47,099 nt of DNA from a virus (IMGVR_UViG_2534681604_000006:1-47099), one strand, 5' to 3'. Positions 24,780 through 39,718 are shown, counted from the stretch's first letter. Program-made: numbers and translations. The notes: generated from the letters alone by a model not told the origin.

Positions 24780-25489
24780 TGGCGAAAAATGACTTTAAAG
24801 CGTTTGCAACGGATCGAAATGCCAATGTTATATCGCAGGAGGAATGGGAAGCGTTGCCCGCGCTTTTATCCGGATTTACAGCAGGGAAAGCCTCCAGTGC
24901 GCAAGTCAATAAGGTTATTCGGCAGGCCAGCTTTATTGCTGCAGCTCTGGCCCAGTTTGTAAGTGATAAAACGCAACGGGATGTGCTTGATAATGGTGAT
25001 CTGCCCGGTTTTGTTGAATTGCTGGGATCGGGGTTTGCTGTTGAATACCTGAGCCGCAAGAATCCGTTTGGTGATATCAAATCGGATGGCACGGTGAAAA
25101 CGGCTCTCGAAAACCTTGGTTTGGGAGAAGCGGCAAAACGGGATGTGGGCACAGGGGAAAATCAGATACCGGACATGGTTTCATTTAGTGGGGTGAGGGA
25201 TTATTACGGAAAACAACTTTTGCCAGGAGGGTTGATACTCCAGTGGCTGACGATTCCATCAAGTGCAGCAGCCAAAGCTGTAACACTGAATAATGGTAAT
25301 TATCAGCTGTCAGGTTATAAATGGCCCCAGTCATTTGGTGTCCTGTTTGCTGTGTTTGCCACAAAAGTTTCTGGCTCGACTAACGAAGCATACGCAATCT
25401 CAGTTAATCGTCACTCTACCGATGTAATTGTCACCTGGAATGCCCGTAAGGCTGATGATGTCCACATTTTAGGAATTGGGAAATTATGA
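24779..25489 (+). CDS. Tail fibre protein (constant N-terminus fused to the currently oriented variable C-terminus)
   Basis: ATG at 24779 overlapping the upstream stop; crossover repeat inside the gene at 25116-25141; a paralogous C-terminus is encoded on the opposite strand. Confidence 0.7.
25116..25141. repeat. Left inverted-repeat crossover site of the invertible tail-fibre segment
   Basis: TTGGTTTGGGAGAAGCGGCAAAACGG, perfect reverse complement of 26623-26648. Confidence 0.75.
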
Positions 25490-25905
25490 AAATGAAATGG
25501 TCCCCATCTGTTCAGGGATTTTTCTCTGAAAACAACAGTGATATTCCCGATGATGCTTTCGATATTGAAGATGCTCTTTATTATGAACTTATGAATGGTC
25601 AGAGTACTGGGAAAATTATTATCAATAGCCCGGATAACTACCCTGTACTTACTGAATATCCAGCGAAGACACAGGAACAGGAAATAGCTGAAGCGGAGGG
25701 AATGAAAAATATACTTATTGAACAAGCCAACGATTATATGAACAGTAAACAATGGCCTGGTAAAGCGGCTATTGGCCGGCTGAAAGGTGAGGAACTGGCG
25801 CAATATAATTTGTGGCTGGATTACCTGGACGCACTGGAACTGGTCGATACTTCCGGTGCGCCAGATATTGAATGGCCTACGCCGCCGGCAGTTCAGGCCA
25901 GCTAA
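25486..25905 (+). CDS. Tail fibre assembly protein
   Basis: 139 aa [17 protein letters not shown]...; follows the tail-fibre gene. Confidence 0.7.
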
Positions 25906-26272
25906 TCTCAGGAGCCGTCGAAGTGTCGACGGCTTTTACTTCTTTTTTGTAGTCCATCCAAGCAGATAGTTTTTCTTTATCTGTACTGCTGATATCACCA
26001 AGCATTAACTCCACTCGCCAGTCAGCTGTGACATTATCGGCATGAGCAAGTAACTGCATTCGCTGATTTTCCGCAAGTGCGACATAATCAATCGCCGGGG
26101 ATTTCAGTACCGGTAAACCATTTTCATCTGACGTAATTAATTTACCCCCTTCCTGCTGTCCGGCAATTAATTCATTGTATAAGTCTGTACTTATCTCAAC
26201 AATGTCAGCAGGCATGTCGCTGTTTATACCATCAAAGAAAAAACCATTAGTCGATTTTGAGAAATAAATCAT
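25877..26272 (-). CDS. Alternative tail fibre assembly protein (inverted orientation)
   Basis: Paralogue on the minus strand, MIYFSKSTNGFFFDGIN... from ATG at 26272. Confidence 0.6.
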   Translation of the reverse strand: MIYFSKSTNGFFFDGINSDMPADIVEISTDLYNELIAGQQEGGKLITSDENGLPVLKSPAIDYVALAENQRMQLLAHADNVTADWRVELMLGDISSTDKEKLSAWMDYKKEVKAVDTSTAPEISWPELPAA

Positions 26273-26280
26273 AGATATAC

Positions 26281-26622
26281 CTATACACCGATTGCTACCC
26301 AAAAACAGGACCTTTCATATTTGACAATTTCTCCATGAGATATACCGCCAACAATTATATAGAACTGTGATTTGCTGATATCAGAACAGTTCGCTATGCC
26401 CATTGCAGATATACCAGCCACCGACGTTGTATGTGGCACAGCCAACAGCGCAAGTGAACGATTTGGGAATGTTACCGGGTAAGTCACCGTATAGTTTGAT
26501 GCTCCACTGACAATACCCCACTGAATAATCAGACCTGAAGGGAGTTTTTGAAACCCCGTTGATGAAAGTGAACTGGCAAACGCCGCCATATCCGGAATTT
26601 GGTTTTGCTCGTTACCTACATT
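26281..26622 (-). CDS. Alternative tail-fibre C-terminal variable segment (no own start; expressed only after inversion)
   Basis: Encodes ...[20 protein letters not shown]..., paralogous to the plus-strand tail-fibre C-terminus and beginning at the inverted repeat. Confidence 0.6.
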   Translation of the reverse strand, partial: NVGNEQNQIPDMAAFASSLSSTGFQKLPSGLIIQWGIVSGASNYTVTYPVTFPNRSLALLAVPHTTSVAGISAMGIANCSDISKSQFYIIVGGISHGEIVKYERSCFWVAIGV

Positions 26623-26648
26623 CCGTTTTGCCGCTTCTCCCAAACCAA
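26623..26648. repeat. Right inverted-repeat crossover site of the invertible segment
   Basis: CCGTTTTGCCGCTTCTCCCAAACCAA. Confidence 0.75.
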
Positions 26649-26714
26649 CGTTTATGAAAATGCAGAAATAGCGCGCAAATGGCATCGTTCCTGTTTTTGT
26701 CAGGAGGAGCTATC

Positions 26715-26906
26715 ATGCTTATTGGCTATGTTCGCGTATCAACAAATGACCAGAACACCGATCTACAACGTAATGCGTTGAACTGTGCAGGATGCGAGCT
26801 GATTTTTGAAGACAAGATAAGCGGTACAAAGTCCGAGAGCCTAGGGCTGACACTGCTGTTCTTGATGCAAATTAAAGGATTTAATAGTGAGTTGTGGCCT
26901 TACTAA
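26715..26906 (+). pseudogene. Gin/Hin/Pin-family DNA invertase, truncated after about 40 codons
   Basis: MLIGYVRVSTNDQNTDLQRNALNCAGCELIFEDKISG... then unrelated sequence and a stop; RBS AGGAGGAG; a full invertase is about 190 aa. Confidence 0.7.
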
Positions 26907-26939
26907 TGTAAGGCCGCTATAATCATTTTATTAATTGCA

Positions 26940-28829
26940 TTAATCGTGTTTTGGCCATACTTTCAATGCAATTTCCCCCAACTTTTTACCCCGCTCCAGG
27001 ATTTCACCCTCATCCCATTTATCCTTAAGTATAAGTGGTATGTTCAGTCGTAGATTGGTGTGGACGATGAGAGCATCACGTTTTTTCAGAAATACAGCAT
27101 TCTGAACAGAACGGTTTACGCTAAGGTTAAGCAAAGTTAGATTTCCCAACGTAGCTATCGCTTGTTGCCGTTTCCTTACCAGTAGCTGCTCAGGGGTAAG
27201 ATCTGTTCCAGACAGAACAATTTGGTTCAATACCGTTGCATCTGAATTTGTCACCATATGACCATTTTCGAGAGGCCAACAGGAATACCAACTTTGAGGC
27301 ATAAGATGATCGATATCGAGATTGGAAAGATTTGGAACATCAGGCTTCTCTGTCTTCACTTGGTGACAAAGTTCTCTTTCAAGTTCCGTTAACATTGAGC
27401 GCATTTTCGGTGCGTCGAGCCTGCCAGGATAAAGTGGAGCATTGATGCAAGCATTGAGAAATTCTGAGTCACCAGGCCAACGTGAGGCTTCGCCATTTAA
27501 GCTATTGAGGATATTACGTAACTCAACACTGGAAATTTCCGTTTTAGACAAGTGCCGCAATACATTCATAAATACATTGTTGTAATTCTTTGGCGTCAGG
27601 CCACATACGGCTCTTCGTACTACGTAGGAGACAAGATCATTATACATGGCTGCTTTCTCATCATCGGCGATGTTAGCTATCGAAATGAACAAAGCAAGCG
27701 GATAAAGTGTCGTCACATCATAGGCTGCGATGCGATGTCCAAAGTGTGAGATGGGGGTTGTGCCAAAACCACCAACCAAATCTTTATATTGTGATGCATA
27801 TTGTTTGAGGCGCTTTACTTGCAGATCAGCTCGTTGTGAAGGCAAGTCCTTACTTACATAATCACGATACTCATTGTAAAGACGAGACAGATCAATTTCA
27901 CGTTGCCTTTCTGATTGCAATGTCGCATGCACTAGCCACTCCATGCGTGGTTTATTAATACGTCCACGGCGTTGCCTTTCCGACCAGTATGTATCTTCAA
28001 AGCTCTTCCACTCATTTTCATATAATTCAATAGCATTAATATTTTCATGCTCAGCGCACATAAAGATGTAGTTGCGAATAAGATCCGTGGCATGAAGTTC
28101 CGCCCCTCGGCCATTTAATGTTTCAAAAATTATTTGGGCATCATCTTCAGCTTCGAGAAATATGCTTACCAGTTTCAGATCCGTCAAGACAGCCTCAATT
28201 AGTGCTACAGCATTTTCATGTGGTGAGTACTTTTCTATTTTAATCCATTTTATAAAGGCTTCAGTAAAAAAACATAATGCCTCTAGTGACGGCGGGTGGT
28301 TGAAATGTTTACGTAACGTACCATGTTGCGTGAAGCTATCAGAAAATACATTACGGAGATCGTCAATGTTTTCAACATTAAAACTTTGAATAAAATGAGT
28401 TTGGTCTCGAAAAGTTGGCCACAGTTTGAAGCATTCTACCTTTTTATTTCGCATAGTTGCTTCGTTTGTATTTTTCAAGCAAGTCAATACTAACCCTTCC
28501 AAATCAGAAAGGCCTGTAGCACGCAATGATAATCGAATGGATGCCAGAATATATTGAAGAGTGGTTAAACGTTGCTGGCCGTCAATAATATGTATGGTAT
28601 CTACACCTAACAAGCTGTTTTTGAGTTGAGGTTCCAGCACCACCGCGCCAAGGAAATGGGGAGTTGGTTTTGTTCCCAAAAGTCGGCTATGTGCTTTTTC
28701 GAAGATATCCTCCAGCAAAGCTGACCATTGGTTTTGTTGCGTCCATACGTAGGCACGTTGATAGAATGGAACACGATATTGTCGTTGATTTTGGAAAAGT
28801 TGCTGGATGGTTAGCGTTTCGGATTTCAT
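26940..28829 (-). CDS. GmrSD-like type IV restriction endonuclease (DUF262 + DUF1524 domains)
   Basis: N-terminal DUF262 motifs (FYQRAYVW, IIDGQQRLTT) and C-terminal HNH-like DUF1524 (DIDHLMPQSW); AT-rich. Confidence 0.8.
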   Translation of the reverse strand: MKSETLTIQQLFQNQRQYRVPFYQRAYVWTQQNQWSALLEDIFEKAHSRLLGTKPTPHFLGAVVLEPQLKNSLLGVDTIHIIDGQQRLTTLQYILASIRLSLRATGLSDLEGLVLTCLKNTNEATMRNKKVECFKLWPTFRDQTHFIQSFNVENIDDLRNVFSDSFTQHGTLRKHFNHPPSLEALCFFTEAFIKWIKIEKYSPHENAVALIEAVLTDLKLVSIFLEAEDDAQIIFETLNGRGAELHATDLIRNYIFMCAEHENINAIELYENEWKSFEDTYWSERQRRGRINKPRMEWLVHATLQSERQREIDLSRLYNEYRDYVSKDLPSQRADLQVKRLKQYASQYKDLVGGFGTTPISHFGHRIAAYDVTTLYPLALFISIANIADDEKAAMYNDLVSYVVRRAVCGLTPKNYNNVFMNVLRHLSKTEISSVELRNILNSLNGEASRWPGDSEFLNACINAPLYPGRLDAPKMRSMLTELERELCHQVKTEKPDVPNLSNLDIDHLMPQSWYSCWPLENGHMVTNSDATVLNQIVLSGTDLTPEQLLVRKRQQAIATLGNLTLLNLSVNRSVQNAVFLKKRDALIVHTNLRLNIPLILKDKWDEGEILERGKKLGEIALKVWPKHD

Positions 28830-29548
28830 TATTTACCTATAAGTGACATTCCACAAGAGTAAGAAATTCATCTGAGTCAGAACAATCATTTTTATGTAGT
28901 CATGATACAGTGTATTTGTTGCTGGTGAAGTAAAAACGAGAAATCCCGTTTTTGAATGCTGACGTGCTACGGCTTCATTGGATATTCTCTTTTGTCTCTT
29001 CTCCATTCCGTCGGTGTTTTGTCGAGATTGTTAGCATATTGTTATTGTTGTTTTTTTATCCAAGCGCTGCTCGATCATTGTAGATGGCACTATCGGGTAT
29101 TGAAGCTGCAGACATGTCGTATACAAAAGTCAGTTGCGGTTGGCTGGTGAACTTCCGATAGTGCTAGTATTGAATTATTTCCAGCCGTTATTGATTTTAC
29201 ATGTTTTTTGCATGAAAGGATTAACGCCTCCTCCCACCGACCCTCCATGACTTTACGCCACTATCTCTCAGTCTGCTATGTGCCAGATGCGGATGTTACG
29301 AACAGTTAAATATATTTATATTGCGGGGGCAGTTTAAAAGCATTACGGACGAAAAATTAATCGATCCTTGATAAAATCAGTCCAGCGATGACCATAATTT
29401 ATTCTTTCCTTAAATCAAACAAGTCATCCTTTCCATGGTTGTCTCATAAGTTATCCTTTGAAGAAATGATTAATTATGATGAAATTATGCCTTCTTTATA
29501 CAGTTGAAAAAGTGTTCATCTGCTTTTCTTGGCTAAGGAACAAATAAT

Positions 29549-32500
29549 ATGGATGAAATTTCCAGATTTATTGGAAAGATTGAGGTGCTTCACAAGACAG
29601 GATGTGCAACTGAACATTCGTACAGACCTGCTTTTATTGACCTCATCGAAAGCTTTAATAATGACATAACGGTTTTAAACGAACCTAAGCGCATTGAATG
29701 TGGTGCCCCCGATTTCATTATCCAGCGTGGAAATATTGTCGTTGGTCATTTGGAGGCAAAGGATGTTGGCGTGGATATCCGAAATCTCACAGGGCCGAAC
29801 AAAAAGCAGCAGCAGCGTTATCTTGATGCCCTACCTAATCTCATCTACAGCAATGGCCTCGATTGGGATTTCTACCGTGATGGGCAACTACTGGAATCGG
29901 TTACTATTGGTTCCATGGGGCTAGGTATCAAGTCAGATGCAGGCCAGTTCGACAAGTTGAAATCATTACTGGATGATTTTATTAGCCAGACACCTATCAG
30001 CATTACTAGCCCTCAAGAGTTAGCCGTGCGCATGGCGGGTAAGGCCAAGCTTATCAAACCTGTGTTCTTTAACGCTTTGGATGCTGATCTGCGATCTGGA
30101 AATGATACTGAGCTAGTTTTACAGTACAAGACCTTCAGAGACAACCTTATACACGGTATTGACCCGGAAAGTTTCGCGGATATTTATGCAGAGACCATCT
30201 GCTACGGTATGTTCGCAGCTCGACTACATGACAATACGTTGGATACGTTCAGTCGTCATGAAGCGTTGGACAAGCTACCCAAAACCAACCCGTTCCTAAA
30301 AAATCTATTCAGTTATATAGCTGGAAGCGGGTTAGACGAACGTATTGTTTGGATCATCGACGATCTTGCCGATATTTTTCGGGCAACAGATGTTGCGGCC
30401 ATCATGGCCGGTTTCGGCAAGCTCACTGGCCGACAAGATCCTTTCCTACACTTCTATGAAACCTTCTTGGCCGCTTATGACCCAGACAAACGCAAATCTC
30501 GAGGTGTTTGGTACACTCCGGAACCAATAGTAAATTTCATTGTGCGAGCCGTAGATGAAGTCTTGCAAACCGAGTTTGGTCTTAAAGATGGGCTAGGCGA
30601 TACATCGAAGATAAAAATCCCATGGGACACTGGCCAGCGTAAATTGACCAAGTCTGGTAGACCTACGGCCGATGGAAAAAACTTTATCACCGAAAAAGAC
30701 GTTCACCGGGTTCAGATTCTCGATCCAGCTACCGGCACTGGCACTTTCCTGGCGGAGGTAATCAAGCAGATCGCCCAAAAGGTTAACGATGTAGCGCCTG
30801 GCATGTGGAGTGGCTATGTCGAAAAGGAGTTGATTCCACGCATCCACGGATTCGAAATTATGATGGCCTCCTATGCAATGTGCCACATGAAACTGGACAT
30901 GATACTCACCGAATTGGGTTACAGGCCAAGCAGCAATCCACCGCGCCAATCAATATACCTAACTAACTCACTGGAAGAAGGTGACCCACCTAACTATAGC
31001 TTGCCATTCGCTAGCTGGCTTGCCACCGAAGTGAAACTCGCCAATACCATCAAGCGTGATATGCCTATTATGTGCGTGATTGGCAATCCACCTTATTTGG
31101 GCGAAGGCGGCGTTTCAGAAGGGTGGATTGGTAGACTTATGGACGACTATAAAAAAGAACCCGGCGGTAAGGAGAGGCTTAGGGAACGCAATCCCAAATG
31201 GCTGAATGATCTATATGTGAAGTTCCTGCGTATCTCCTCGCACTGGGTTGAAAAGAACGGTGAGGGTGTCTTGGGATTCATTACCAACCACGGCTATCTG
31301 GATAATCCCACCTTCCGGGGCATGCGTTGGCACTTGCTTCATACTTTTGACAAGATTTGGATTCTGGATTTACATGGCAGTTCCAAAAAGAAGGAGAAAA
31401 CGCCGAACGGTTCCATGGATGTTAATGTCTTCGACATAATGCAGGGGGTGTCCATCATAATCGGCGTTAAGAAAAAGCATAGTGGTAATGGTCTGGCTGA
31501 AGTAATGCGAGGTGATTTGTGGGGCAGTAGGGCGGAAAAATACGAGGCTCTGAGAAATCTTAACTTGACAAACGAGCTTTTCAAAAAAATTGAAATAAGA
31601 CCGCCTCAATATCCCTTTGTTACACAGGACTGGACTGATTTTGAAAGTTATCAGTCCGGATTTCCTATTAATATTTTTATGCCGGTACATGGAAATGGGA
31701 TTGTCACAAAACGGGATAAATTGAATATTCACTTTACTCCTAATGATGTTAAGCAAGTCGTTGAAGATTTCCTGACGCTCAGTGAGTCTGAAGTCCGGAA
31801 TAAATATAAACTTCCAAATGATGTCAGAGACTGGCGATATGAATGGGCTAAACAGGACATCGAAAGCAGGGTGGGAAAAATTCCAGTTCAGAAAATTGGT
31901 TATAGGCTCTTCGATCGTCGTTTTATCTTTTATTCGGGGAAAGCAAGAGGACTTATTGGTTGGCCAGTGGCACATATCATGGAACATTACATTCGTGGAA
32001 AGAATATTGGGTTACTGACCACTAAAGCACATAGAGATGCTGATTTTGCTCATGTATTTATAACTGATCTACCAACGGAAGCCATTCATTTCTCAGCTAC
32101 TAGTGGCTCAAATGCGATGAACTTTCCCCTTTACCTCTATCCGAAAGACGATCTGACAAAGCCCCAAGTTAATTTCGAACCCAAGCTCTTCGCCCGCTTG
32201 CAAAGATTGGCTGCTCATTCTGATTACGGCATACCCAATGAAATCGTTGTCTTTGATTATATTTACGGTGTGCTTCATTGTCCGCTCTACCGCAAGGCTT
32301 ATGCGGAGTTTCTTAAAACTGACTTCCCGCGCATTCCTTGGCCAGCCAGCCCGGATGAGTTTTGGCATGTCTCAGTCAAGGGCGGCGAGTTGCGGCGCTT
32401 GCACCTAATGGAACCATCAGCCATAGGTGATACATCATTTAGCTTCATGGGCGATGGCAATAACGAGGTGGATACCATCGGCAAGGCATCTTTCCGAGAA

Positions 32501-32725
32501 GGCAAGGTTTTTATCAATAAAACCCAGTACTTCGTATACGTTCCGGAGAATGCTTGGAACTTTCGTATCGGTGGCTATCAGCCTGCTCAGAAATGGCTCA
32601 AGGATCGCCAAGGGTGTACTCTGTCATTTGAGGATATAAGGCACTACCAAAGAATTATTAAGGTGCTCATCGAAACTGATCGTATTATGGCAGATATTAC
32701 AATGAATCTGGGTATTAAAGTCTAA
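29549..32725 (+). CDS. Single-chain type IIL/IIG restriction-modification enzyme (MmeI-like)
   Basis: N-terminal PD-(D/E)xK motif (APDFII...GHLEAKD), AdoMet motifs GVWYTPEPIV and ILDPATGTGTF, catalytic NPPY (VIGNPPY), C-terminal target-recognition region. Confidence 0.75.
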   Translation: MDEISRFIGKIEVLHKTGCATEHSYRPAFIDLIESFNNDITVLNEPKRIECGAPDFIIQRGNIVVGHLEAKDVGVDIRNLTGPNKKQQQRYLDALPNLIYSNGLDWDFYRDGQLLESVTIGSMGLGIKSDAGQFDKLKSLLDDFISQTPISITSPQELAVRMAGKAKLIKPVFFNALDADLRSGNDTELVLQYKTFRDNLIHGIDPESFADIYAETICYGMFAARLHDNTLDTFSRHEALDKLPKTNPFLKNLFSYIAGSGLDERIVWIIDDLADIFRATDVAAIMAGFGKLTGRQDPFLHFYETFLAAYDPDKRKSRGVWYTPEPIVNFIVRAVDEVLQTEFGLKDGLGDTSKIKIPWDTGQRKLTKSGRPTADGKNFITEKDVHRVQILDPATGTGTFLAEVIKQIAQKVNDVAPGMWSGYVEKELIPRIHGFEIMMASYAMCHMKLDMILTELGYRPSSNPPRQSIYLTNSLEEGDPPNYSLPFASWLATEVKLANTIKRDMPIMCVIGNPPYLGEGGVSEGWIGRLMDDYKKEPGGKERLRERNPKWLNDLYVKFLRISSHWVEKNGEGVLGFITNHGYLDNPTFRGMRWHLLHTFDKIWILDLHGSSKKKEKTPNGSMDVNVFDIMQGVSIIIGVKKKHSGNGLAEVMRGDLWGSRAEKYEALRNLNLTNELFKKIEIRPPQYPFVTQDWTDFESYQSGFPINIFMPVHGNGIVTKRDKLNIHFTPNDVKQVVEDFLTLSESEVRNKYKLPNDVRDWRYEWAKQDIESRVGKIPVQKIGYRLFDRRFIFYSGKARGLIGWPVAHIMEHYIRGKNIGLLTTKAHRDADFAHVFITDLPTEAIHFSATSGSNAMNFPLYLYPKDDLTKPQVNFEPKLFARLQRLAAHSDYGIPNEIVVFDYIYGVLHCPLYRKAYAEFLKTDFPRIPWPASPDEFWHVSVKGGELRRLHLMEPSAIGDTSFSFMGDGNNEVDTIGKASFREGKVFINKTQYFVYVPENAWNFRIGGYQPAQKWLKDRQGCTLSFEDIRHYQRIIKVLIETDRIMADITMNLGIKV

Positions 32726-32729
32726 AATT

Positions 32730-32759
32730 GTCAGGGCTGCTTTGGCAGCCCTGACTTGC
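32730..32759 (+). terminator. Hairpin/terminator after the restriction-modification gene
   Basis: Perfect 11-bp stem GTCAGGGCTGC tttg GCAGCCCTGAC followed by a T-containing tail. Confidence 0.5.
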
Positions 32760-33074
32760 TCCCAGTAGTTAAATACTCCACGATATTAAAATGCCTTACG
32801 AACTTCCGATTTTCGCTCATAACAGATATTTACTAGAGTTATGGTAGAAGGTATGTATGCTGGTTGGGGATAGTGTGAAAGAAAAGAAGACTGCTGCGCC
32901 GTTTGTCGTCACGTTGATCTTCATTGGCTATGCAAGTCATAATGCAAGGTGGGACAAAACTGAGACACATAAGGCCTCACAATGGCTTGTAAGGCTTTAC
33001 ATATTTTGATATGGAGGGACGTGTGAGCGCAGTGTTGATGGGGTAATACTTTGAATTAGAATCGGATTCTTATA

Positions 33075-33120
33075 ATTCGTAATGCGAAGGTCGTAGGTTC
33101 GACTCCTATTATCGGCACCA
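33075..33120 (+). other. 46-nt copy of the tRNA-Thr(CGU) 3' end, anticodon loop to CCA (prophage attR; attachment site used by the downstream island)
   Basis: ATTCGTAATGCGAAGGTCGTAGGTTCGACTCCTATTATCGGCACCA folds as the 3' two-thirds of a tRNA; the 5' part is absent, so this is not a functional tRNA gene. Confidence 0.75.
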
Positions 33121-33727
33121 TCAAGAAAATCAATAACTTAGCTTAACTTCTCTAAGAAATTGTATCTTCTGTTATCACTTACAAACGCCTATACGTTGTT
33201 ATGGGCTTTGGTAGTGTAACACGTATGGGCGAGTAGTTCACAGGCTCAACCTCGTAACAAGTTCCTTTGAAGCTGGAAGACGTGCCACCGTCTCTAAACC
33301 TTCTACCAAAACTCTTAGCAAGATGTTCCACACCTGGCGCGGTGTCCAATGATGCTACACGTCGTGAGACGTTGCAGAGGATAAACAGGCTAAATGATGG
33401 GAAGAGTTTTAAGTGCAATAGTGGATCAAAGCCCACCTCTTCAAAACCTAACTTGATCGGGAAAGAATCAAGCTCTAGCACGGTTTCGTCCACCGGAGTA
33501 CAACGGGTGCCTGATAAGAGAAGAACTGCTAAGACTTCATAGCTTTTGTGAAAAAGCCCTTTTTAGTGGATACGCCTACGGCGCTTATTTTTTGGGATAG
33601 CCCATCAAAGGCGCTTTATGGCTCCTATTGTCTTGAAAATGTATCTTTACTTGTATTGTGTTTTATGCGTAGTCTCCCTGTGTAGTATGTAACTTGTTAA
33701 TTTTCATATGAATACAGAGGTAACACG

Positions 33728-33886
33728 ATGAAAAACATTGCAGCTATCAAACGTAATAACCGCAAGATTCACGCTCGTAAGTTCCTGTCTACGCCAGAAG
33801 GAAAAGCCTGGCTAGAGCGTAAACAGAGAGAGAACGAAGAAAGAAAACTCCTTAGTGAGTTGAAATGGCTTAGAGAGGATTTCTGA
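33728..33886 (+). CDS. Small basic hypothetical protein (52 aa)
   Basis: ATG at 33728 preceded by GAGG; below the 60-aa cutoff of the ORF track. Confidence 0.3.
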   Translation: MKNIAAIKRNNRKIHARKFLSTPEGKAWLERKQRENEERKLLSELKWLREDF

Positions 33887-34177
33887 AAATCTCCAGAACG
33901 CAACAGGACGCATTCTAACGCTGTTTTCATTGCTTGGTATAGGGATGTATAGGTGATGTGTGTTTAATGCGTCTGTGAGCTTGTTTTGTGCCTTATTTTG
34001 CATTTTCATAATGCAGGAGAGAACACGGAAAACCTTAAAATTAATTATTGGGGTATTTAAGGCTATTTTCAGGTTATTTAAGGGTATTAAACTTGATTTA
34101 ATTGATTAAAATATAAACAGATAATTATGTATCTTATTGATTTATAAGGTTATTTTTAAATAAAGGTAAATAAAAAA

Positions 34178-34227
34178 TAAATAGCCATAAATAGCTATAA
34201 ATACGTCTAAATACATCTAAATACCTA
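34178..34227. repeat. Five tandem 10-bp iteron-like repeats
   Basis: AAATAGCCAT AAATAGCTAT AAATACGTCT AAATACATCT AAATACCTAT, one helical turn apart. Confidence 0.7.
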
Positions 34228-34703
34228 TATCCCTTCCTTATGGCTAGATTGCGAGAGGTGCTTAACGCGATTTTCAGCGCCCCCCGATCTGGAAAATCCA
34301 GAATCCCCAAATATCAGCAAGGAATTTTCTTGCGTAATCAACATCGTTTTTACCTATTAAATCATTACACAGAAAGCCTTTCTGTAATGTCTCTCACTAA
34401 ACTTTCACTAAACACGAGAATGATCGGTTTTATGTCGGATCAGATGCTAGAAACAGCACCACGTCTCACAAGGGCTGTAAGCGATGAAACCAGTGTTTAT
34501 GCGGGTACAGGTCAAAATATAGGCCAAAATCCATTTAACATAATAATCGTAATATGCACTAAGGAACACATAGAACGCCTTGAATTGATGTATCAGGGGA
34601 AAAGTGATGGATTTTTTACGTAGGAGCACGAAAGGGCTTCTATTGACTTTTGTATGTTATGAAATATAATTAAAGGTTTTTTTGTTTTTATCGTGTGATG
34701 TAG

Positions 34704-35150
34704 TGGATTACACAGGGGAATAGATTAAATGGTGTTCTGTTTATACAGGTTTATTTGTTAGATCAACAATTTGGCATTTCTAAACAGATGTTTGAACGTT
34801 GCCAAATGCCTTGACAACACAAGAAAAGGGCTTGCTATGCCACGCATTACACGAAATAAGGCTGTAAAAACAAAATAAATTTTAAAATTTGCACAAACGA
34901 GAGAACTCATTAAGAAACAAGCAGAACAATTTTTAGCCAACAATTTCTGATGGTGCTCTGTAAGCCGCATTACACAAGGCTTTGCGAAAGTGATGTAAAA
35001 GTGAAGAAAGTAAGAATTGCACTTTTAAGCTACTTTTCATTGAATTTTTTAGTATGGAATTACACAGGGAATAGAGAGCATTATTCTATGATTTACACAG
35101 GGAATATAGGGGGATTATGGCACACACATAGAAAGGCATTACACAGAGTG
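34704..35150. repeat. Dispersed ATTACACAGGG(AATA) direct repeats, at least six copies
   Basis: GGATTACACAGGGGAATAG, CATTACACGAAATAAGG, CATTACACAAGG, GGAATTACACAGGGAATAGAG, GATTTACACAGGGAATATAGG, GCATTACACAGAG. Confidence 0.5.
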
Positions 35151-35191
35151 CTATGTGACAAATGGATGTAACGAGAGGTTACATTCAGCTA

Positions 35192-35326
35192 CCCCCACAG
35201 AATTCTGTTAATCTTAACTTTTAAAGAGATTTTTACCCTAACAAAATTCTGTTACCCCACCCTAACAGAATTCTGTTAGACACCCCCACAGAAAACTGTT
35301 AGACACCCCCACAGAATTCTGTTACC
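35192..35326. repeat. Array of five direct repeats each containing the palindrome ACAGAATTCTGT
   Basis: Palindrome copies at 35197, 35241, 35265, 35288 and 35311, the last four at about 23-bp spacing, each flanked by CCC(C/T)...TTA(G)ACA. Confidence 0.7.
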
Positions 35327-36542
35327 TATTAGATCATTTATTAAATTACTTATTAAATTATAATATTATATATTTATTTATATGATCTTTTGCCTTCCGG
35401 CGTTAGCTTCACTCTCTGGCAAGCAGCCTTACTCCGCTACCTTTGGGCTTCGTGGCTGGCCCGTTCCGCTCACACCGAAAGCAAAGCGTTACTTTCTTCG
35501 TGTAACTTCGTTGGCGGTAACGCCCACGAAGAAATACTATTGCGCTGTGCGCAGTAAGAGTAATCACCTAACCAATCATACTGATTGCTTACGTGTTAAC
35601 TCTCTCTAACTCTTAATTACCCTCCTACATTTAATAACTCTGTTATTCTCTGTAGTTGTGTAATTACTCGAAGAGAGAGCGGCTAAAGCTCAATTACACT
35701 CTGCTTTCCTCGTGTAATTTCACTAAGCCTCAATACAATTTCACTTCCTACATTCTGTAGTCGTGTAATTGTTTTCGGTGGAAAAGCCAGAGGCGACACC
35801 GAAAGAGAATTCTGATCTTATTAATCTTATCTATCTTAGTTAATCTTCTTACTTATCTTACTTACTTTATCTACTTTATTATTAATAATAGCTTTATAAG
35901 CTCTGTGTAGCTCTCTGACGCAAGAAACAGCATTCAGGAAGGGAATCACCTTAGAAAAGTGTTCTTTGCGTCATAATGTGTTTTATGAAGGATTCAGAGG
36001 TGTTTCATAACAGGAGTGTATAGAGGATACTTTAGGTAATTAAAAATAAGGGGTCTAAATGCTTCTCTAACAGCATTAAGCAGGGTAGGGAATGGAAACG
36101 CATTGCCTACACATATAAGCTCACTACAGAGCTTTACAGAGCGTTTTATAAAGTGACTCTCTATCTTATATCTACCATCACCTTTTCATATACCTAACAA
36201 ATACAAAATAAGCCCCTTAAATAAGCCTCTGGCGAGCTAAACAACCTCTACATAAGAGAATGTATTGCTTTTATCAAAACTTCGTTAGAACGCGTTTTAG
36301 AGCGTTTTAGACAATAATGAAGAATAGCACTACACAGAAGAGCACGAATAGCTAAGAAAAAATGTAAGTGCATGAAAAAGATCAGTTTTTTTATGGAAAG
36401 GTATTGACAAATGTTTCTTTATATGTAATAATAGGTATTAGAGGGACAGAAAAACATTCTTCTCTAAATAATCAAAATCAATGCACTTTGAAGCCGTCAG
36501 GCTTGCAAGGTGTTTTTCTTTTAACTGAATAAGGAGTTTTTT

Positions 36543-36731
36543 ATGAAATGGTTTACCCCGGAGCACGTCATCTCGGCATTTAAAAAAGGTGAGCTTACAC
36601 GCCATCAAGTAGTAATGAATCGTAATATGGCAAGGAGTCGAGGTTATCCAGAGCGAGCAGCTTGCTTCAATGAAGCACTCAAGATTATTGATGAACTAAG
36701 AAAAAATGAAAAAGAATCTGAAACAGAGTAA
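36543..36731 (+). CDS. Hypothetical small protein, first gene of the island operon
   Basis: 62 aa; strong RBS AAGGAG 8 nt upstream. Confidence 0.55.
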   Translation: MKWFTPEHVISAFKKGELTRHQVVMNRNMARSRGYPERAACFNEALKIIDELRKNEKESETE

Positions 36732-36750
36732 AGAATAGAAGGAGAAAACT

Positions 36751-36918
36751 ATGAGCGAAACTAAGAAACCAATTCCGCGCACTTACCTACACGTTGACCC
36801 TGAAATCTTCAAGGTTTTATTTGCTGAAGCCAAGAAAAGGCAAATTATGGTCAGTGATTTGATGTTAGAAATCATTACTGAAGCAGCAGAGAACATCAAA
36901 CAAAAAAAGGGTAAGTGA
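36751..36918 (+). CDS. Ribbon-helix-helix-like small DNA-binding protein (55 aa)
   Basis: ATG at 36751 with RBS GAAGGAG; N-terminal beta-strand-like RTYLHVDPEIFKV followed by helices; not in the ORF track because it is under 60 aa. Confidence 0.5.
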   Translation: MSETKKPIPRTYLHVDPEIFKVLFAEAKKRQIMVSDLMLEIITEAAENIKQKKGK

Positions 36919-36969
36919 TCCTCATTCACTTTAGTAGCGCATTAAGCGTGATTTATAAGGAGATTTTTA

Positions 36970-37623
36970 ATGATTAATGAAGAACAATTTGTAAAAGTTC
37001 CTATGTGGATTCTAAAAATAAGCCAAGTAAACGGGCATAAATTTACAGATAGTGCTAAAAACCTTTACTGCTATCTGAAAGGGTTTGATCGTGCATTTCC
37101 CTCTTACGCTAAGATAGGCGATGTTTTTGGCATAACACCAAGAGCAGCAGAGGAAAGGGTTAAGAAATTGCTCGAAATGGGATTAATTATAAAAGATGCA
37201 CGACCAGGAAGTTCTAATGTCTATCAAGTGGTAGATATTCCACAAGAAGAAGCTAGACAAGAAGCCAAGACACAACAAGAAGCTACTGTTAAAGCTGTTC
37301 CTGATCAGCTTCCCCCTACGGAAGATAATAAACAGCCTTCTTTTGATGTTCTTGATGATTGGGATGCGCCTTTGCCGTGGGAGACGGAAGAAACACCTGT
37401 TTCATCAAATGAAAAGGTAGCTAATGATAATGAGGAGGATGTGTTAGAGAATTTTGCCTCTCTTATCATCCGGGAGAAACACAGAAGAACAGGAGGATCA
37501 TCATTTATAGACTTTGCAAATTCACTAGCTTATAGACACGGGCTAAAACGACCAAATGGTATTGAGGCATATTTTGCTAAGAAACATCCCAAAGTATATG
37601 AAGACTTTGATATTCCATTTTAA
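36970..37623 (+). CDS. HTH-domain protein, putative replication initiator/organiser
   Basis: 217 aa; N-terminal winged-HTH-like region (KNLYCYLKGFDRAFPSYAKIGDVFGITPRAAEERVKKLLEMGLI), acidic linker, basic C-terminus; RBS AAGGAG. Confidence 0.55.
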   Translation: MINEEQFVKVPMWILKISQVNGHKFTDSAKNLYCYLKGFDRAFPSYAKIGDVFGITPRAAEERVKKLLEMGLIIKDARPGSSNVYQVVDIPQEEARQEAKTQQEATVKAVPDQLPPTEDNKQPSFDVLDDWDAPLPWETEETPVSSNEKVANDNEEDVLENFASLIIREKHRRTGGSSFIDFANSLAYRHGLKRPNGIEAYFAKKHPKVYEDFDIPF

Positions 37624-37634
37624 TAAGGAGGGTT

Positions 37635-37913
37635 ATGATTCAATATTTAGTAAAAAATCAAGTAGACAGAATTCAGTGTAATGACACAGGAAAACGCATC
37701 TATGAAACACTTGCTTACCTCTATAAAGGAAAGCCAACACCGCTAAAATATAGCGATGTGTTACATCGAGCAGGGTGCTCTGAAGATGGTTTAAAATTCT
37801 GGCTTAGACAGCTATCAAATTTCGGTGTTATAGAGATTAAAGAATTATCTTTCTCTACATTCAATCTCAAAAGACTGGATAAAGAAATAGACTTCATCTA
37901 TTCCACTCTCTAA
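37635..37913 (+). CDS. Hypothetical protein
   Basis: 92 aa; RBS AAGGAGGG. Confidence 0.55.
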   Translation: MIQYLVKNQVDRIQCNDTGKRIYETLAYLYKGKPTPLKYSDVLHRAGCSEDGLKFWLRQLSNFGVIEIKELSFSTFNLKRLDKEIDFIYSTL

Positions 37914-38045
37914 AATCTCTCTATGTAATTAAAATATAAAAGGAAAACATTATTATGGTAATAGCTATGTGGTGGTTGTTGTTTTTTATGCTCGTAGAAA
38001 CATACTTCGGGGTGTTTTCCTTTAAAAGAAAAGGAAAAGTAAATA

Positions 38046-38456
38046 ATGGCAAAAAGAAAAAACAACGTTGTTAAGAAGATCGGTGATTCAGCTTCTCTTC
38101 TAAGTAAACCTAAATCTATTCTAAGACGCAAAGACTTTAAAGAGCTAGTTACGCTCACCAAGCAAAATAGCGCCCCTGGCGAATGGAAAACAGAGATTAT
38201 AGAACATTCTCCCTCTGTGCCTTGCGGAGATGAATTTAACGCCTTACAAGAAATCTTATCTTCAACACCTGGCGTATTCTGGAAACCTAGAAAAAGAAAA
38301 GAGTATATCGTTGATAGCTCTGATTTGCGCAAATACCAGATTTTAGGATTTGAAGATTATAATCACTACGTCGGTTATCTCGCCACCAATGGCCTAAATA
38401 ATTTAGTTCCTGAATTCCAAATTTTAGATAATGCTGATCACTATGGAGACTTTTAA
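38046..38456 (+). CDS. Hypothetical protein with basic N-terminus
   Basis: 136 aa; RBS present. Confidence 0.55.
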   Translation: MAKRKNNVVKKIGDSASLLSKPKSILRRKDFKELVTLTKQNSAPGEWKTEIIEHSPSVPCGDEFNALQEILSSTPGVFWKPRKRKEYIVDSSDLRKYQILGFEDYNHYVGYLATNGLNNLVPEFQILDNADHYGDF

Positions 38457-38457
38457 T

Positions 38458-38796
38458 ATGAACAAAAACACGTATGACACAATTTATTCACTAATTAATT
38501 ATTATGAGGATGATTACCTCCTGCCTTTAAACCGCGCTGAACTTGAAGCATACAAAGAAAACACGCCAGCGGCACTAAATGAGGCGTTTAAACACTGGGA
38601 TTTAGCTGTGAATGCCTTTGAGCACCTCTCTAAGCGTGTAGAGATGCTCTGTAAGCGTGAGAACGCATATCTAACAGCGGATCAGCTATTTGAGCTATCA
38701 AACTGGATAGAAGATATTGAATCGGACGTTCGCTATGTGGGAGATGGCCTTATTGAACTAGCTCAACGCTTAGGCGCTGCTATCACAGAAGAATAA
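38458..38796 (+). CDS. Hypothetical protein
   Basis: ATG at 38458 with GGAGA RBS, directly after the upstream stop; ORF track lists 38431 as an upstream alternative. Confidence 0.5.
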   Translation: MNKNTYDTIYSLINYYEDDYLLPLNRAELEAYKENTPAALNEAFKHWDLAVNAFEHLSKRVEMLCKRENAYLTADQLFELSNWIEDIESDVRYVGDGLIELAQRLGAAITEE

Positions 38797-39128
38797 AAAA
38801 AGCAACAAAAAAGTTGTAAAATATCTTGACATTTCATCTATTGTATGTTAATATAATTATATAGGGTGATTATTTTTCCTTTATTGGTTCGATATTAAAA
38901 ATTCTTCTTGTCGTTAAAGGGGAGTAAAATCTCCGCTCCCCGCTTCTCCTCCTTAAGTAAATACTGTGTCATTATTACCTCTTTTTTCCTTTGTTATGCA
39001 TACATCTTGGAGTGTGCATAACATAGGGTAATTACAAAGGCGGCTTTAAATGCTGCCTTTTATTTTGCCCGTTATGCAACTTAAAAGTTGTATTTCTTAC
39101 TTTAAACAAGGTAACAAGGTTTATATAA

Positions 39129-39341
39129 ATGTTGTTTTTAAACGATAAAGAGCAAATCATCAAGTATAAAGATGAAATGCTGAAAATTAATCCACAAATT
39201 ACCGAAATGGTAGCTAAATACGCTGGGTGTTCTGTCGAGGAAGTAGAACGATGTGTTGAAAAATATTTTTCTCCTTCTTCTCCGTCTACACCTTCCATTA
39301 ATGAATTAATCAAATTAAAAGCTAAGGAGATTACTAAATGA
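39129..39341 (+). CDS. Hypothetical small protein
   Basis: 70 aa; stop overlaps the next start. Confidence 0.45.
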   Translation: MLFLNDKEQIIKYKDEMLKINPQITEMVAKYAGCSVEEVERCVEKYFSPSSPSTPSINELIKLKAKEITK

Positions 39342-39700: not shown

Positions 39701-39718
39701 TAAAAGGAATAATAATAA

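What the first reader, a model, noticed from the sequence alone, without database searches (positions are those of the whole stretch)
26840..33074. Defence cargo at the prophage right end: GmrSD-like type IV enzyme plus MmeI-like type IIL RM, divergently arranged
Where P22/SfV-type prophages usually carry gtr-type cargo between the tail fibre and attR, this prophage has two AT-rich defence genes separated by a 720-bp divergent promoter region: a DUF262-DUF1524 nuclease (targets modified DNA) and a single-polypeptide nuclease-methyltransferase with PD-ExK, DPATGTGTF and NPPY motifs (targets unmodified sites). The pairing gives complementary restriction. The insertion point coincides with truncation of the phage invertase gene.
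Basis: partly seen in the sequence, partly recalled or inferred. Interest (0 to 1): 0.55.

Follow-up and report, generated by a model that had tools for sequence, protein, structure and literature searches.

The report
Two known-type restriction genes on a prophage end
The right end of this E. coli prophage carries a near-copy of the already characterised GmrSD enzyme, which cuts modified phage DNA, next to an independently acquired, uncharacterised single-protein restriction-methylation enzyme of the DrdV type; the finding is real but ordinary.

Summary
Two large divergent ORFs, 26940-28829(-) and 29549-32725(+), lie 719 bp apart between a truncated tail-fibre invertase and a 46-bp thrW attR core (33075-33120).

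- **ORF 1 is GmrSD.** It has Pfam GmrSD_N and GmrSD_C and is 96.7% identical to Eco94GmrSD, which was shown experimentally to cut glc-5hmC/5hmC DNA. DGQQR and D507/H508/N522 are intact. That enzyme was already reported just downstream of prophage tail-fibre genes.
- **ORF 2 is a 1058-aa single-chain RM enzyme.** It has an invariant PD..ExK nuclease motif, a helical linker, a gamma-type N6A methyltransferase (DPATGTGTF, NPPY) and a Type_ISP_C recognition domain. It has no ATPase. Its closest solved relative is the type IIL enzyme DrdV. It is not in the MmeI family, and NCBI's name "type ISP" does not fit.
- **The two genes are not a co-evolved pair.** gmrSD, next to a truncated invertase in every locus inspected, is in 306 of 5426 complete E. 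coli genomes. The RM gene is in 6. It is a 3.55-kb cassette (29271-32826) that is solitary in Enterobacter. The same slot elsewhere holds a type I-C retron or a 300-aa unknown gene.

Complementary restriction is plausible but untested. Verdict: a new member of known kinds, low interest.

The parts
25111..25178 (.). Left inverted repeat of the invertible tail-fibre segment. It is also the mosaic junction: homology to this prophage's own lineage stops at 25130, and the block shared with an unrelated SfII-like prophage starts at 25052.
   Evidence: Inverted-repeat pair, 68 nt, 82% complementary. BLAST junctions.
26586..26653 (.). Right inverted repeat of the invertible segment. In many genomes homology to the gmrSD module begins here (26587-26634).
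   Evidence: and the query starts of 587-635.
26715..26903 (+). Truncated Pin/Gin-type serine invertase pseudogene. About 45 N-terminal residues are homologous and the remainder of the 184-aa protein is missing.
   Evidence: Pfam Resolvase N-terminal domain, 5.5e-9. BLASTP against the intact 184-aa pinE of L003. Annotated as a pseudogene in relatives.
26894..26917 (-). Stable hairpin just downstream of the gmrSD stop codon. It is a candidate terminator but has no clear U-tract.
   Evidence: Fold of 26880-26945(-): -15.2 kcal/mol, z = -4.07.
26940..28829 (-). gmrSD: a single-chain type IV, modification-dependent endonuclease. The N-terminal DUF262 NTPase/DNA-binding domain carries DGQQR 83-87. 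The C-terminal DUF1524 His-Me finger carries D507, H508 and N522.
   Evidence: Pfam GmrSD_N 7.9e-34 and GmrSD_C 1.2e-18. PADLOC mREase_IV, 1473.6 bits over 629/629. 608/629 identical to Eco94GmrSD and 93% to UTI89 GmrSD.
28902..28929 (-). Sigma-70-like promoter candidate for gmrSD (TTCACC-16-TATCAT). The -10 hexamer is conserved in all three allele groups.
28830..29270 (.). Non-coding region upstream of gmrSD that travels with gmrSD, not with the RM gene. The 57-aa ORF at 28833-29006(-) is not conserved as a reading frame.
   Evidence: Alignment of 11 loci shows stop codons and frame-breaking indels in the UTI89-type and icd-type copies. Block boundaries.
29271..32826 (+). A 3.55-kb single-gene RM cassette: 278 bp upstream, the ORF, and about 100 bp downstream. 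This is the unit found in the variable slot.
   Evidence: 88.6% DNA identity over exactly this span to a solitary chromosomal copy in Enterobacter. Within E. coli the variable region runs from about 29290 to 32803. No terminal repeats were found.
29549..32725 (+). Single-polypeptide type IIG/IIL-style RM enzyme, 1058 aa, with four parts:
- PD-(D/E)xK nuclease, about residues 1-150;
- helical connector, about 155-343;
- gamma-class N6-adenine methyltransferase, with motif I at 392 and NPPY at 513;
- Type_ISP_C target-recognition domain, 710-1048.
   Evidence: - Family searches: Pfam; PADLOC REase_MTase_IIG, 935 bits.
- PDB searches.
- Conservation: motifs invariant in 30 homologues.
- Structure: AF2 model and Foldseek.
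- ATPase: no Walker A.
32730..32755 (+). An 11-bp perfect hairpin 5 nt after the RM stop codon. It is a candidate terminator.
   Evidence: -24.5 kcal/mol, z = -4.94.
32827..33074 (.). Conserved right block, presumed attP arm. It is shared at about 90-97% identity by thrW prophages that carry different cargo.
   Evidence: L002, L003, L005 and L007 resume homology at 32801-32813.
33075..33120 (+). attR core: the 3' 46 nt of tRNA-Thr (thrW), ending in CCA. This is the prophage right boundary.
   Evidence: Aligns to positions 31-76 of the annotated tRNA-Thr in L004. Sequence. Unique in the window. Not called as a whole tRNA.

Best explanation
The last 6.3 kb of a thrW-integrated E. coli myovirus prophage carries two autonomous, single-gene restriction systems. 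Each has its own promoter region and a trailing hairpin.

**System 1: gmrSD (26940-28829, minus strand).** It encodes a type IV enzyme. By analogy with Eco94GmrSD, which is 96.7% identical, it binds DNA containing glucosyl-5hmC or 5hmC and cuts it with its C-terminal His-Me finger (D507/H508/N522). NTP stimulates the reaction through the N-terminal DUF262 domain. This would exclude T-even-type phages unless they inject an IPI*-like inhibitor.

**System 2: the 1058-aa protein (29549-32725).** It is a DrdV-like type IIL RM enzyme. The inferred mechanism is:
- its C-terminal recognition domain reads a short asymmetric site;
- the gamma-class methyltransferase marks one adenine of host sites with m6A;
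- the N-terminal PD-ExK nuclease cuts unmethylated DNA at a fixed distance when several enzyme-bound sites come together;
- there is no ATP-driven translocation.

The two systems should not interfere with each other, because one writes m6A and the other reads modified cytosines. Together they would cover unmodified and hypermodified phage DNA.

**How the locus was assembled.**
- gmrSD, with the invertase stump next to it, is an old and widespread prophage-end module.
- The RM gene is one of at least three alternative cassettes in the slot between gmrSD and attR.
- The whole right end, from the tail-fibre inverted repeat (about 25.05-25.13 kb) to attR, has been exchanged between unrelated prophage backbones, presumably by homologous recombination.

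**Shown here:** identities, domains, motifs, boundaries and distribution.

**Inferred:** enzymatic activities, expression in the lysogen, recognition site and phage range.
For: **GmrSD**
- Pfam and PADLOC hits.
- 608/629 identity to the Eco94GmrSD sequence taken from Fig. S1 of PMC4437046.
- The catalytic residues whose mutation abolished activity in that paper are conserved at the same numbering.
- The paper reports more than 10^6-fold restriction of T4 delta-ip1, and a location immediately downstream of the tail-fibre genes of an SfII-like prophage.

**RM enzyme**
- Type_ISP_C at 1.6e-76, plus N6_Mtase and Eco57I.
- The profile search of the PDB hits only LlaBIII, DrdV and LlaGI significantly, and only over the MTase-TRD part.
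- Foldseek puts DrdV first at E 1.8e-27 over the full length. The isolated DrdV nuclease-domain chain 7lvv_C matches with TM 0.76.
- P54, D55, E69, K71, most of motif I (D392, P393, A394, G396-F400; T395 nearly so) and NPPY are invariant in 30 homologues of 60-90% identity.
- There is no Walker A motif and no helicase Pfam hit.
- The mechanistic model comes from the DrdV paper.

**Independence of the two genes**
- 306 versus 6 of 5426 genomes.
- The cassette is solitary among housekeeping genes in Enterobacter.
- Slot alternatives are a type I-C retron in 20 genomes and a 300-aa unknown gene in 17.
- gmrSD alone lies next to attR at icd.

**Module exchange**
- Window 25052-33133 is 98.8-99.7% identical to the right end of an SfII-like prophage (L001).
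- Homology to this window's own backbone relatives stops at 25130.
Against: - **No activity was measured.**
  - This thrW allele of GmrSD differs from Eco94GmrSD at 21 positions, including K280T in a motif the authors targeted.
  - The 93%-identical UTI89 enzyme was inactive in vitro and has a different phage range. Specificity and IPI* sensitivity therefore cannot be read off.
- **No close characterised relative of the RM enzyme was found.** Its recognition site is unknown.
- **The structure model is mediocre.**
  - Mean pLDDT is 65.9, and the MTase core is below 50.
  - Only the N-terminal domain and the overall ranking of matches are usable.
  - Global TM-scores are low, around 0.3.
- **Promoters are weakly supported.**
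  - The scan found no more sites than in shuffled sequence, 19 against 15.8 +/- 4.3.
  - It found none upstream of the RM gene.
  - Both hairpins lack U-tracts.
- **One of the six carrier genomes has the RM gene split by an IS4-family element**. The gene is therefore not always maintained.
Confidence: 0.8

Rival explanations
1. The two genes form one obligate, co-evolved two-component defence system with shared regulation from a common divergent promoter region.
For: They are adjacent and divergent. All six E. coli genomes with the RM gene also have gmrSD beside it.
Against: - gmrSD occurs without the RM gene in about 300 genomes.
- The RM cassette is solitary in Enterobacter.
- The spacer is composite: 28830-29270 belongs to the gmrSD block and 29271-29548 to the RM cassette.
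- The same slot holds a retron or an unknown gene elsewhere.
Confidence: 0.04
2. The 1058-aa protein is a type ISP enzyme, as its RefSeq product name says. It would translocate along DNA using ATP and cut on collision of two enzymes.
For: RefSeq names it 'type ISP restriction/modification enzyme'. The best PDB sequence matches are LlaBIII and LlaGI.
Against: - The matches cover only the MTase-TRD part: LlaBIII residues 895-1523 align to query 382-1018.
- There is no helicase Pfam domain and no Walker A motif.
- The protein is 1058 aa against 1406-1578 aa for the type ISP enzymes.
- The full-length fold match is to DrdV, which has no translocase.
Confidence: 0.03
3. The RM protein acts only as a methyltransferase, for epigenetic marking or for protecting phage DNA, and its nuclease is no longer used. 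Alternatively, the locus is decaying cargo that is not expressed.
For: - One carrier has an IS insertion in the gene.
- No promoter was detected upstream.
- The cassette is rare, in 6 of 5426 genomes.
Against: - The PD..ExK residues are invariant across 30 homologues down to 60% identity, which argues for selection on the nuclease.
- The ORF is intact in all five uninterrupted carriers, identical in four of them and 99.9% in the fifth.
Confidence: 0.1
4. This thrW allele of GmrSD has a different specificity from Eco94GmrSD, or is inactive like the purified UTI89 enzyme. The 'modified-DNA' arm of the pair would then not work as assumed.
For: - There are 21 substitutions against Eco94GmrSD. Ten match the UTI89 allele and eleven are unique, including K280T.
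- The UT enzyme does not restrict T4 or T4 lacking IPI and was inactive in vitro.
Against: - The catalytic residues and DGQQR are intact.
- The allele is conserved at 624-628 of 629 residues in the other thrW loci.
- The UT enzyme still restricts T2 and T6 in vivo.
Confidence: 0.15

Closest known systems
[quoted passage not shown] 2015, PMC4437046)
   Same: Same length (629 aa) and 96.7% identity. The DGQQR and D507/H508/N522 residues are the same. The genomic position is the same: immediately after the tail-fibre genes at the end of a prophage.
   Different: There are 21 substitutions, including K280T. This is the thrW-site allele, whereas copies 627-628/629 identical to Eco94GmrSD sit in icd-site prophages. 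Here the host prophage backbone is not SfII-like. The activity of this allele is untested.
DrdV (Deinococcus wulumuqiensis type IIL RM enzyme, PDB 7lo5/7lvv)
   Same: - Same order of parts: N-terminal PD-ExK nuclease, helical connector, gamma-class N6A methyltransferase, C-terminal TRD.
- Similar size, 1029 against 1058 aa.
- Neither has an ATPase.
- It is the best full-length fold match and the best nuclease-domain match.
- The profile E-value is 3.1e-46 over the MTase-TRD part.
   Different: Identity in the structural alignment is only about 18%. The N-terminal 380 residues are not detectable by sequence. The recognition site (CATGNAC for DrdV) cannot be transferred. This protein belongs to a large proteobacterial subfamily: 8000 database clusters, the search's scoring cap, matched at E<=1e-10 and the best 120 are 59-100% identical. 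I found no characterised member of it.
MmeI family (type IIL, PDB 5hr4)
   Same: Same functional class and overall architecture: a single chain with nuclease, then methyltransferase, then TRD. NPPY and motif I are present.
   Different: - MmeI_Mtase scores 17.4 bits, below the cut-off of 27, and no other MmeI model hits.
- There is no sequence or profile hit in the PDB.
- Foldseek gives E 6e-4 and probability 0.69.
Type ISP enzymes LlaGI / LlaBIII
   Same: The MTase and TRD are homologous, with E down to 2.9e-51 for the profile. The Pfam Type_ISP_C domain is shared.
   Different: The RecA-like translocase and coupler are absent, so the collision mechanism cannot apply.
Paired methylation-based and type IV defence in one island (BREX + BrxU on pEFER, PMC8565348), and prophage/satellite defence hotspots
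   Same: One system attacks unmodified DNA and sits next to a GmrSD-family enzyme that attacks modified DNA. The cargo sits in a variable hotspot of a mobile element.
   Different: Here the partner is a single-gene type IIL enzyme, not BREX. The pairing is one of several alternatives at the slot. Complementarity has not been tested.

Membership tests
GmrSD family (type IV) | N-terminal DUF262 (ParB/Srx-like NTPase) domain with the DGQQR motif | tested here: met
   Pfam GmrSD_N 7.9e-34, residues 8-256. DGQQR at 83-87.
GmrSD family (type IV) | C-terminal DUF1524 His-Me finger nuclease with D-H...N catalytic residues | tested here: met
   Pfam GmrSD_C 1.2e-18, residues 451-619. D507, H508 and N522 are present. 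Mutating these residues abolished activity in Eco94GmrSD.
GmrSD family (type IV) | Cleavage depends on modified cytosine (glc-5hmC/5hmC) and is stimulated by NTP | not testable with these tools
   Shown for the 96.7%-identical Eco94GmrSD. Not shown for this allele.
Type IIL RM enzymes, DrdV-like | N-terminal PD-(D/E)xK nuclease domain | tested here: met
   - P54-D55...E69-x-K71 is invariant in 30 homologues.
- The model of residues 1-150 has pLDDT of about 80 and an alpha/beta core.
- The DrdV nuclease chain 7lvv_C matches with TM 0.76 and rmsd 3.6.
Type IIL RM enzymes, DrdV-like | Gamma-class N6-adenine methyltransferase followed by a C-terminal TRD in the same polypeptide, joined to the nuclease by a helical connector | tested here: met
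   - N6_Mtase, Eco57I and Type_ISP_C domains.
- Motif I at residue 392 precedes NPPY at 513.
- Helices span 155-343 in the model.
- DrdV aligns at 335-897 to profile positions 378-945.
Type IIL RM enzymes, DrdV-like | No ATPase or translocase domain | tested here: met
   No helicase Pfam hit. No Walker A motif.
Type IIL RM enzymes, DrdV-like | Methylates one strand of an asymmetric site and cuts at a fixed distance, needing several sites | not testable with these tools
   Needs a methylome and cleavage mapping.
MmeI family | Matches to the MmeI-specific Pfam domains above their gathering scores | tested here: not met
   Only MmeI_Mtase hits, at 17.4 bits against a cut-off of 27. MmeI (5hr4) is absent from the phmmer and profile PDB searches. 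It ranks 41st in Foldseek with probability 0.69.
Type ISP RM enzymes | SF2 RecA-like ATPase/translocase between the nuclease and the methyltransferase | tested here: not met
   The protein is 1058 aa against 1406-1578 aa. Alignments to LlaBIII and LlaGI start after their helicase part. There is no Walker A motif.
Prophage right-end cargo (moron) hotspot | Conserved flanks with alternative, unrelated cargo in related elements | tested here: met
   - The left block runs to about 29290 and the right block starts at about 32805.
- The cargo is the IIL RM gene (6 genomes), a type I-C retron (20 genomes) or a 300-aa unknown gene with its deletion derivative (17 genomes).
- The related prophage L003 carries an intact pinE, a GIY-YIG gene and an AraC-family gene instead.

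The most novel reading that the evidence does not exclude
The stretch between gmrSD and the thrW attR core may be a recombinase-free exchange slot for single-gene defence cassettes. If so, its third occupant is a candidate new anti-phage gene. That occupant is a 300-aa protein (WP_129468631.1) with no Pfam or PADLOC match and only a hit to a PHROG of unknown function. A related possibility is that the uncharacterised proteobacterial subfamily of DrdV-like enzymes, to which the RM gene belongs, has a new specificity or a new way of controlling cleavage.
Probability: 0.3. Interest if true: 0.4.

Novelty: new member of a known kind. Interest (0 to 1): 0.2.

Why it matters
The finding documents, with exact boundaries, how a prophage end accumulates defence genes.

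- An old gmrSD module with an invertase stump has spread across at least four integration sites.
- Next to it is a slot where single-gene systems are swapped: a type IIL RM enzyme, a retron, or an unknown gene.
- The whole tail-fibre-tip-plus-defence block moves between unrelated prophage backbones.

In practice this does three things. It corrects a misleading RefSeq product name ('type ISP'). It flags an untested GmrSD allele and an uncharacterised type IIL enzyme whose specificity could be read from existing PacBio data. It points to one unknown gene worth testing for defence. None of this would surprise a specialist. GmrSD at this position was published in 2015, and complementary pairs of type IV and methylation-based defence are known.

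Tried and rejected
- **A small gene upstream of gmrSD.** I looked at the 57-aa ORF at 28833-29006(-) as a possible regulator or antitoxin. I rejected it because the frame is broken by a stop codon and indels in the UTI89-type and icd-type copies.
- **Known RNAs.** An Rfam scan of 26000-37000 at E<=1 gave only a spurious archaeal snoRNA hit inside gmrSD. There is no retron ncRNA or other RNA family here.
- **Terminal repeats around the RM cassette.** Only short matches at chance level were found, so there is no sign of transposition or site-specific insertion.
- **Promoter scan.** It was not informative, with 19 sites against 15.8 expected. Only the conserved gmrSD -35/-10 pair is worth noting.
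- **NCBIfam.** No family for GmrSD, and only a far-sub-threshold MAD2 hit for the RM enzyme.
- **Sequenced phages.** Neither protein has a close homologue in 50,697 phage records; the best matches are 22-30% identical. The genes are known only from prophages in bacterial genomes.
- **Literature.** Searches for the protein accessions and for this pairing found only the Eco94GmrSD paper.
- **Recognition sequence.** I did not try to predict it. No close characterised relative was found, and motif-avoidance statistics would not be reliable.

Full report
**1. Observation**

ORF listing shows two long ORFs facing away from each other. One is at 26940-28829(-), 629 aa, and the other at 29549-32725(+), 1058 aa. 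They are separated by 719 bp.

The region is poorer in G+C than the phage structural genes. It is 42.8% over 26840-33074, with 37.3% in the spacer, against 50.5% for 1-26000.

- DGQQR 83-87 and D507/H508/N522 in the first protein;
- P54-D55...E69-x-K71, DPATGTGTF at 392 and NPPY at 513 in the second.

To the left, 26715-26903(+) is the stump of a Pin/Gin-type serine invertase.
- It is homologous to an intact 184-aa pinE for only about 45 residues.
- It sits next to an invertible tail-fibre segment bounded by 68-nt inverted repeats at 25111-25178 and 26586-26653.

To the right, 33075-33120 is the 3' 46 nt of tRNA-Thr thrW. It aligns to positions 31-76 of the annotated tRNA in another strain and continues into the sequence that follows that tRNA. 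ARAGORN finds no complete tRNA there, as expected for an attR core.

**2. The first gene is gmrSD itself**

Pfam gives GmrSD_N (7.9e-34) and GmrSD_C (1.2e-18). PADLOC's mREase_IV model matches end to end at 1473.6 bits.

I took the sequence of Eco94GmrSD from Fig. S1 of He et al. 2015 (PMC4437046).
- The window protein is identical at 608 of 629 positions with no gaps.
- It is 93% identical to the UTI89 enzyme.

The paper reports the following:
- ATP-stimulated cleavage of glc-5hmC and 5hmC DNA;
- loss of activity in the D507A, H508A and N522A mutants;
- more than 10^6-fold restriction of T4 lacking IPI*;

The gene, its function and its position were therefore already described.

Three allele groups can be told apart:

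| Allele group | Integration site | Identity to Eco94GmrSD | Residue 280 |
|---|---|---|---|
| This window's type | thrW | 607-610 of 629 | T |
| Eco94-like | icd | 627-628 of 629 | K |
| UTI89-like | ssrA, tRNA-Pro | 587 of 629 (measured at the tRNA-Pro locus L016); UTI89 itself 585 of 629 | K (read in L016 and in the paper's UTI89 sequence) |

The thrW allele has not been tested. The UT enzyme has a different phage range and was inactive in vitro. The exact specificity here is therefore an inference.

**3. The second gene is a DrdV-like type IIL-style enzyme**

It is not in the MmeI family and it is not a type ISP enzyme.

- **Pfam.** Hits are Type_ISP_C (1.6e-76, residues 710-1048), N6_Mtase and Eco57I. 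MmeI_Mtase scores only 17.4 bits against a cut-off of 27.
- **PADLOC.** It calls the protein REase_MTase_IIG at 935 bits.
- **PDB by sequence.** Single-sequence phmmer finds LlaBIII, LlaGI and DrdV, only over the MTase-TRD part.
- **PDB by profile.** A profile of 30 homologues gives LlaBIII 2.9e-51, DrdV 3.1e-46 and LlaGI 1.4e-44. MmeI is not found.
- **Conservation.** In that alignment, at 60-90% identity to the query, P54, D55, E69, K71, most of motif I and NPPY are invariant. Conservation is lowest at about 660-900, as expected for a recognition domain.
- **No ATPase.** There is no helicase Pfam domain and no Walker A motif. The protein is 350-500 residues shorter than the type ISP enzymes.
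- **Structure model.** The AlphaFold2 model is mediocre overall, with mean pLDDT 65.9 and the MTase core below 50. Residues 1-150 are usable, with pLDDT around 80 and an alpha-beta-beta-beta-alpha-beta layout. Residues 155-343 are helical.
- **Fold search.** Foldseek against the PDB ranks DrdV first over the full length (E 1.8e-27), then LlaBIII and LlaGI. The isolated DrdV nuclease-domain chain matches with TM 0.76. MmeI is at E 6e-4 with probability 0.69.

The DrdV paper describes this same architecture. It describes a mechanism in which slow methylation of single sites competes with fast cleavage once several unmethylated sites are brought together, without translocation. It also notes that the DrdV and type ISP MTase-TRD modules share an origin.

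I adopt that mechanism for the window's enzyme as the best inference. The recognition site cannot be deduced.

The family is large: the search scored 8000 candidates, its cap, and all matched at E<=1e-10, the best 120 being 59-100% identical across Proteobacteria. I found no characterised close member.

**4. The two genes are independent units in a hotspot**

In 5426 complete E. coli genomes, gmrSD occurs in 306 and the RM gene in 6. In all six it lies next to gmrSD. Four of the six copies are identical in sequence and a fifth is 99.9% identical. The sixth (STK78-E) also aligns at 100% but is split by an IS4-family element.

Pairwise BLAST against eight related loci defines three regions:
- a conserved left block, from the right inverted repeat through the invertase stump and gmrSD to about 460 bp upstream of it, ending near 29290;
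- a variable slot, from about 29290 to 32803;
- a conserved right block, 32805-33133, which is the presumed attP arm plus the att core.

The nearest homologue outside Escherichia is 90% identical and comes from Enterobacter. It is a solitary gene among efflux, regulator and metabolic genes. DNA homology to it spans 29271-32826 at 88.6%. These limits match the slot limits found within E. coli to within about 20 bp. The RM gene is therefore a 3.55-kb self-contained cassette. It has no flanking repeats.

Other occupants of the same slot are:
- a type I-C retron (RT-Toprim, 'Ec67 family'), in 20 genomes;
- a 300-aa protein with no Pfam or PADLOC match, complete in 7 genomes and reduced to an 89-aa remnant by an approximately 540-bp deletion in most of the other 10.

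At icd, gmrSD is followed directly by the att site. At ssrA and tRNA-Pro it is followed by other genes.

In all 11 gmrSD-carrying loci that I inspected, the truncated invertase lies next to gmrSD. The truncation therefore belongs to the history of the gmrSD module, not to the arrival of the RM gene.

The '720-bp divergent promoter region' is composite.
- 28830-29270 travels with gmrSD.
  - It contains a conserved TTCACC-16-TATCAT candidate promoter at 28929-28902.
  - The 57-aa ORF in it is not conserved as a frame.
- 29271-29548 travels with the RM gene.

Each gene is followed by a stable hairpin, with z = -4.1 and -4.9.

**5. Prophage context**

The left 25 kb of the window is a myovirus prophage. 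It encodes TerL, a DUF1073 portal, a 399-aa baseplate J protein and DUF2612. Its closest relatives are 97-98% identical.

Those relatives carry different right ends:
- strain 2018-10-2CC has an intact pinE followed by a GIY-YIG gene and an AraC-family gene;
- the induced phage vB_EcoM-606R2 has a differently truncated invertase and other cargo.

Homology to these relatives stops at 25130, inside the left inverted repeat. From 25052 to 33133 the window is 98.8-99.7% identical to the right end of an unrelated prophage at the same thrW site. That prophage is SfII-like, with a Mu-type tail.

The tail-fibre tip, its assembly genes, the dead invertase and the defence cargo were therefore exchanged as one block of about 8 kb. 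The exchange was most simply by homologous recombination between the conserved tail-fibre sequence on the left and attR on the right (inference).

With only the first third of the invertase remaining, the invertible segment can flip only if another Pin-family invertase acts in trans (inference).

It is not apt for the backbone of this prophage.

**6. How the pair would work**

The type IIL enzyme writes m6A and attacks unmethylated sites. GmrSD reads glucosylated or plain 5hmC. The two should therefore not attack each other's host marks (established properties of the families; inference for this locus).

Phages with hypermodified cytosines generally escape sequence-specific RM enzymes (established knowledge) but are GmrSD substrates. 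Unmodified phages are invisible to GmrSD but are substrates of the RM enzyme.

This is the same logic shown experimentally for BREX plus the GmrSD-family enzyme BrxU (PMC8565348, listed). It is plausible here but untested. The distribution data show it arose from hotspot turnover, not as a selected obligate pairing.

**7. Verdict**

The finding is real and its interpretation is essentially right. It describes known kinds of things:
- an allele of a published enzyme at its published position;
- an uncharacterised member of the DrdV-like type IIL class;
- both inside a prophage cargo hotspot.

Novelty: new member of a known kind. Interest: 0.2.

The least ordinary leads are the recombinase-free cassette slot with its 300-aa unknown occupant, and the unstudied subfamily of type IIL enzymes.

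Noticed in passing
L005 5862-6764 (E. coli AH62, WP_129468631.1); same slot as window 29290-32803: A 300-aa protein occupies the slot between gmrSD and thrW attR in 7 complete genomes. About 10 more carry a remnant, in most of them shortened to 89 aa by an approximately 540-bp deletion. It has no Pfam or PADLOC hit, only phrog_30874 of unknown function at 2.3e-18. Its position makes it a candidate defence gene.
   Followed up: partly
L002 8998-10833 (E. coli TST3): A type I-C retron (RT-Toprim, 'Ec67 family', PADLOC 736 bits) occupies the same slot next to gmrSD in 20 complete genomes. The ncRNA in the 800-bp spacer was not examined.
   Followed up: partly
window 33121-45200: A second, AT-rich (34-42% G+C) island lies in tandem directly after the prophage attR.
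- It encodes a capsid-E-like protein (39719-40747), a Dit-like tail protein (42918-43631), a 610-aa protein with no Pfam hit (41052-42884) and a tyrosine integrase at the far end (43713-45047, minus strand).
- At least 46 complete E. coli genomes have it at thrW.
- It could be a satellite or a degraded phage.
- No second copy of the att core was found in the window.
   Followed up: partly
window 29136-29200: A 65-bp stretch in the region upstream of gmrSD is 89% identical to a chromosomal intergenic sequence between ykgJ and ecpE (L001 26113-26177, L004 22135-22199). It is also conserved in the UTI89-type locus. There is no Rfam match and its meaning is unknown.
   Followed up: no
window 25052-25130: This is a mosaic junction. 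Backbone homology to this prophage's own lineage ends at 25130, inside the left inverted repeat of the invertible tail-fibre segment. The 8-kb right end is shared at about 99% identity with an unrelated SfII-like prophage. Tail-fibre tips and defence cargo therefore move together.
   Followed up: yes
window 26715-26903: Only about 45 residues of the invertase remain, so the tail-fibre switch (25111-26653) should be locked unless another Pin-family invertase acts in trans. In phage vB_EcoM-606R2 the invertase is truncated at a different point (104 aa) and is followed by a different gene. Loss of the invertase 3' end to cargo insertion may therefore be recurrent.
   Followed up: partly
NZ_CP162185.1 (strain STK78-E), homologue of window 29549-32725: In one of the six carrier genomes the RM gene is interrupted by an IS4-family (ISVsa5) insertion.
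   Followed up: no
window 29549-32725: The RefSeq product name 'type ISP restriction/modification enzyme' (WP_000343528.1) comes from the C-terminal Pfam domain. The protein has no translocase, so the name is misleading.
   Followed up: yes
window 2015-2170: The prophage carries adjacent tRNA-Asn(GTT) and tRNA-Thr(TGT) genes.
   Followed up: no
window 26940-28829, residue 280: The thrW-site gmrSD alleles have T280 where Eco94, CT596 and UTI89 have K280. This residue is part of the ExEx4ExK motif that He et al. targeted by mutagenesis. The consequence is unknown.
   Followed up: partly
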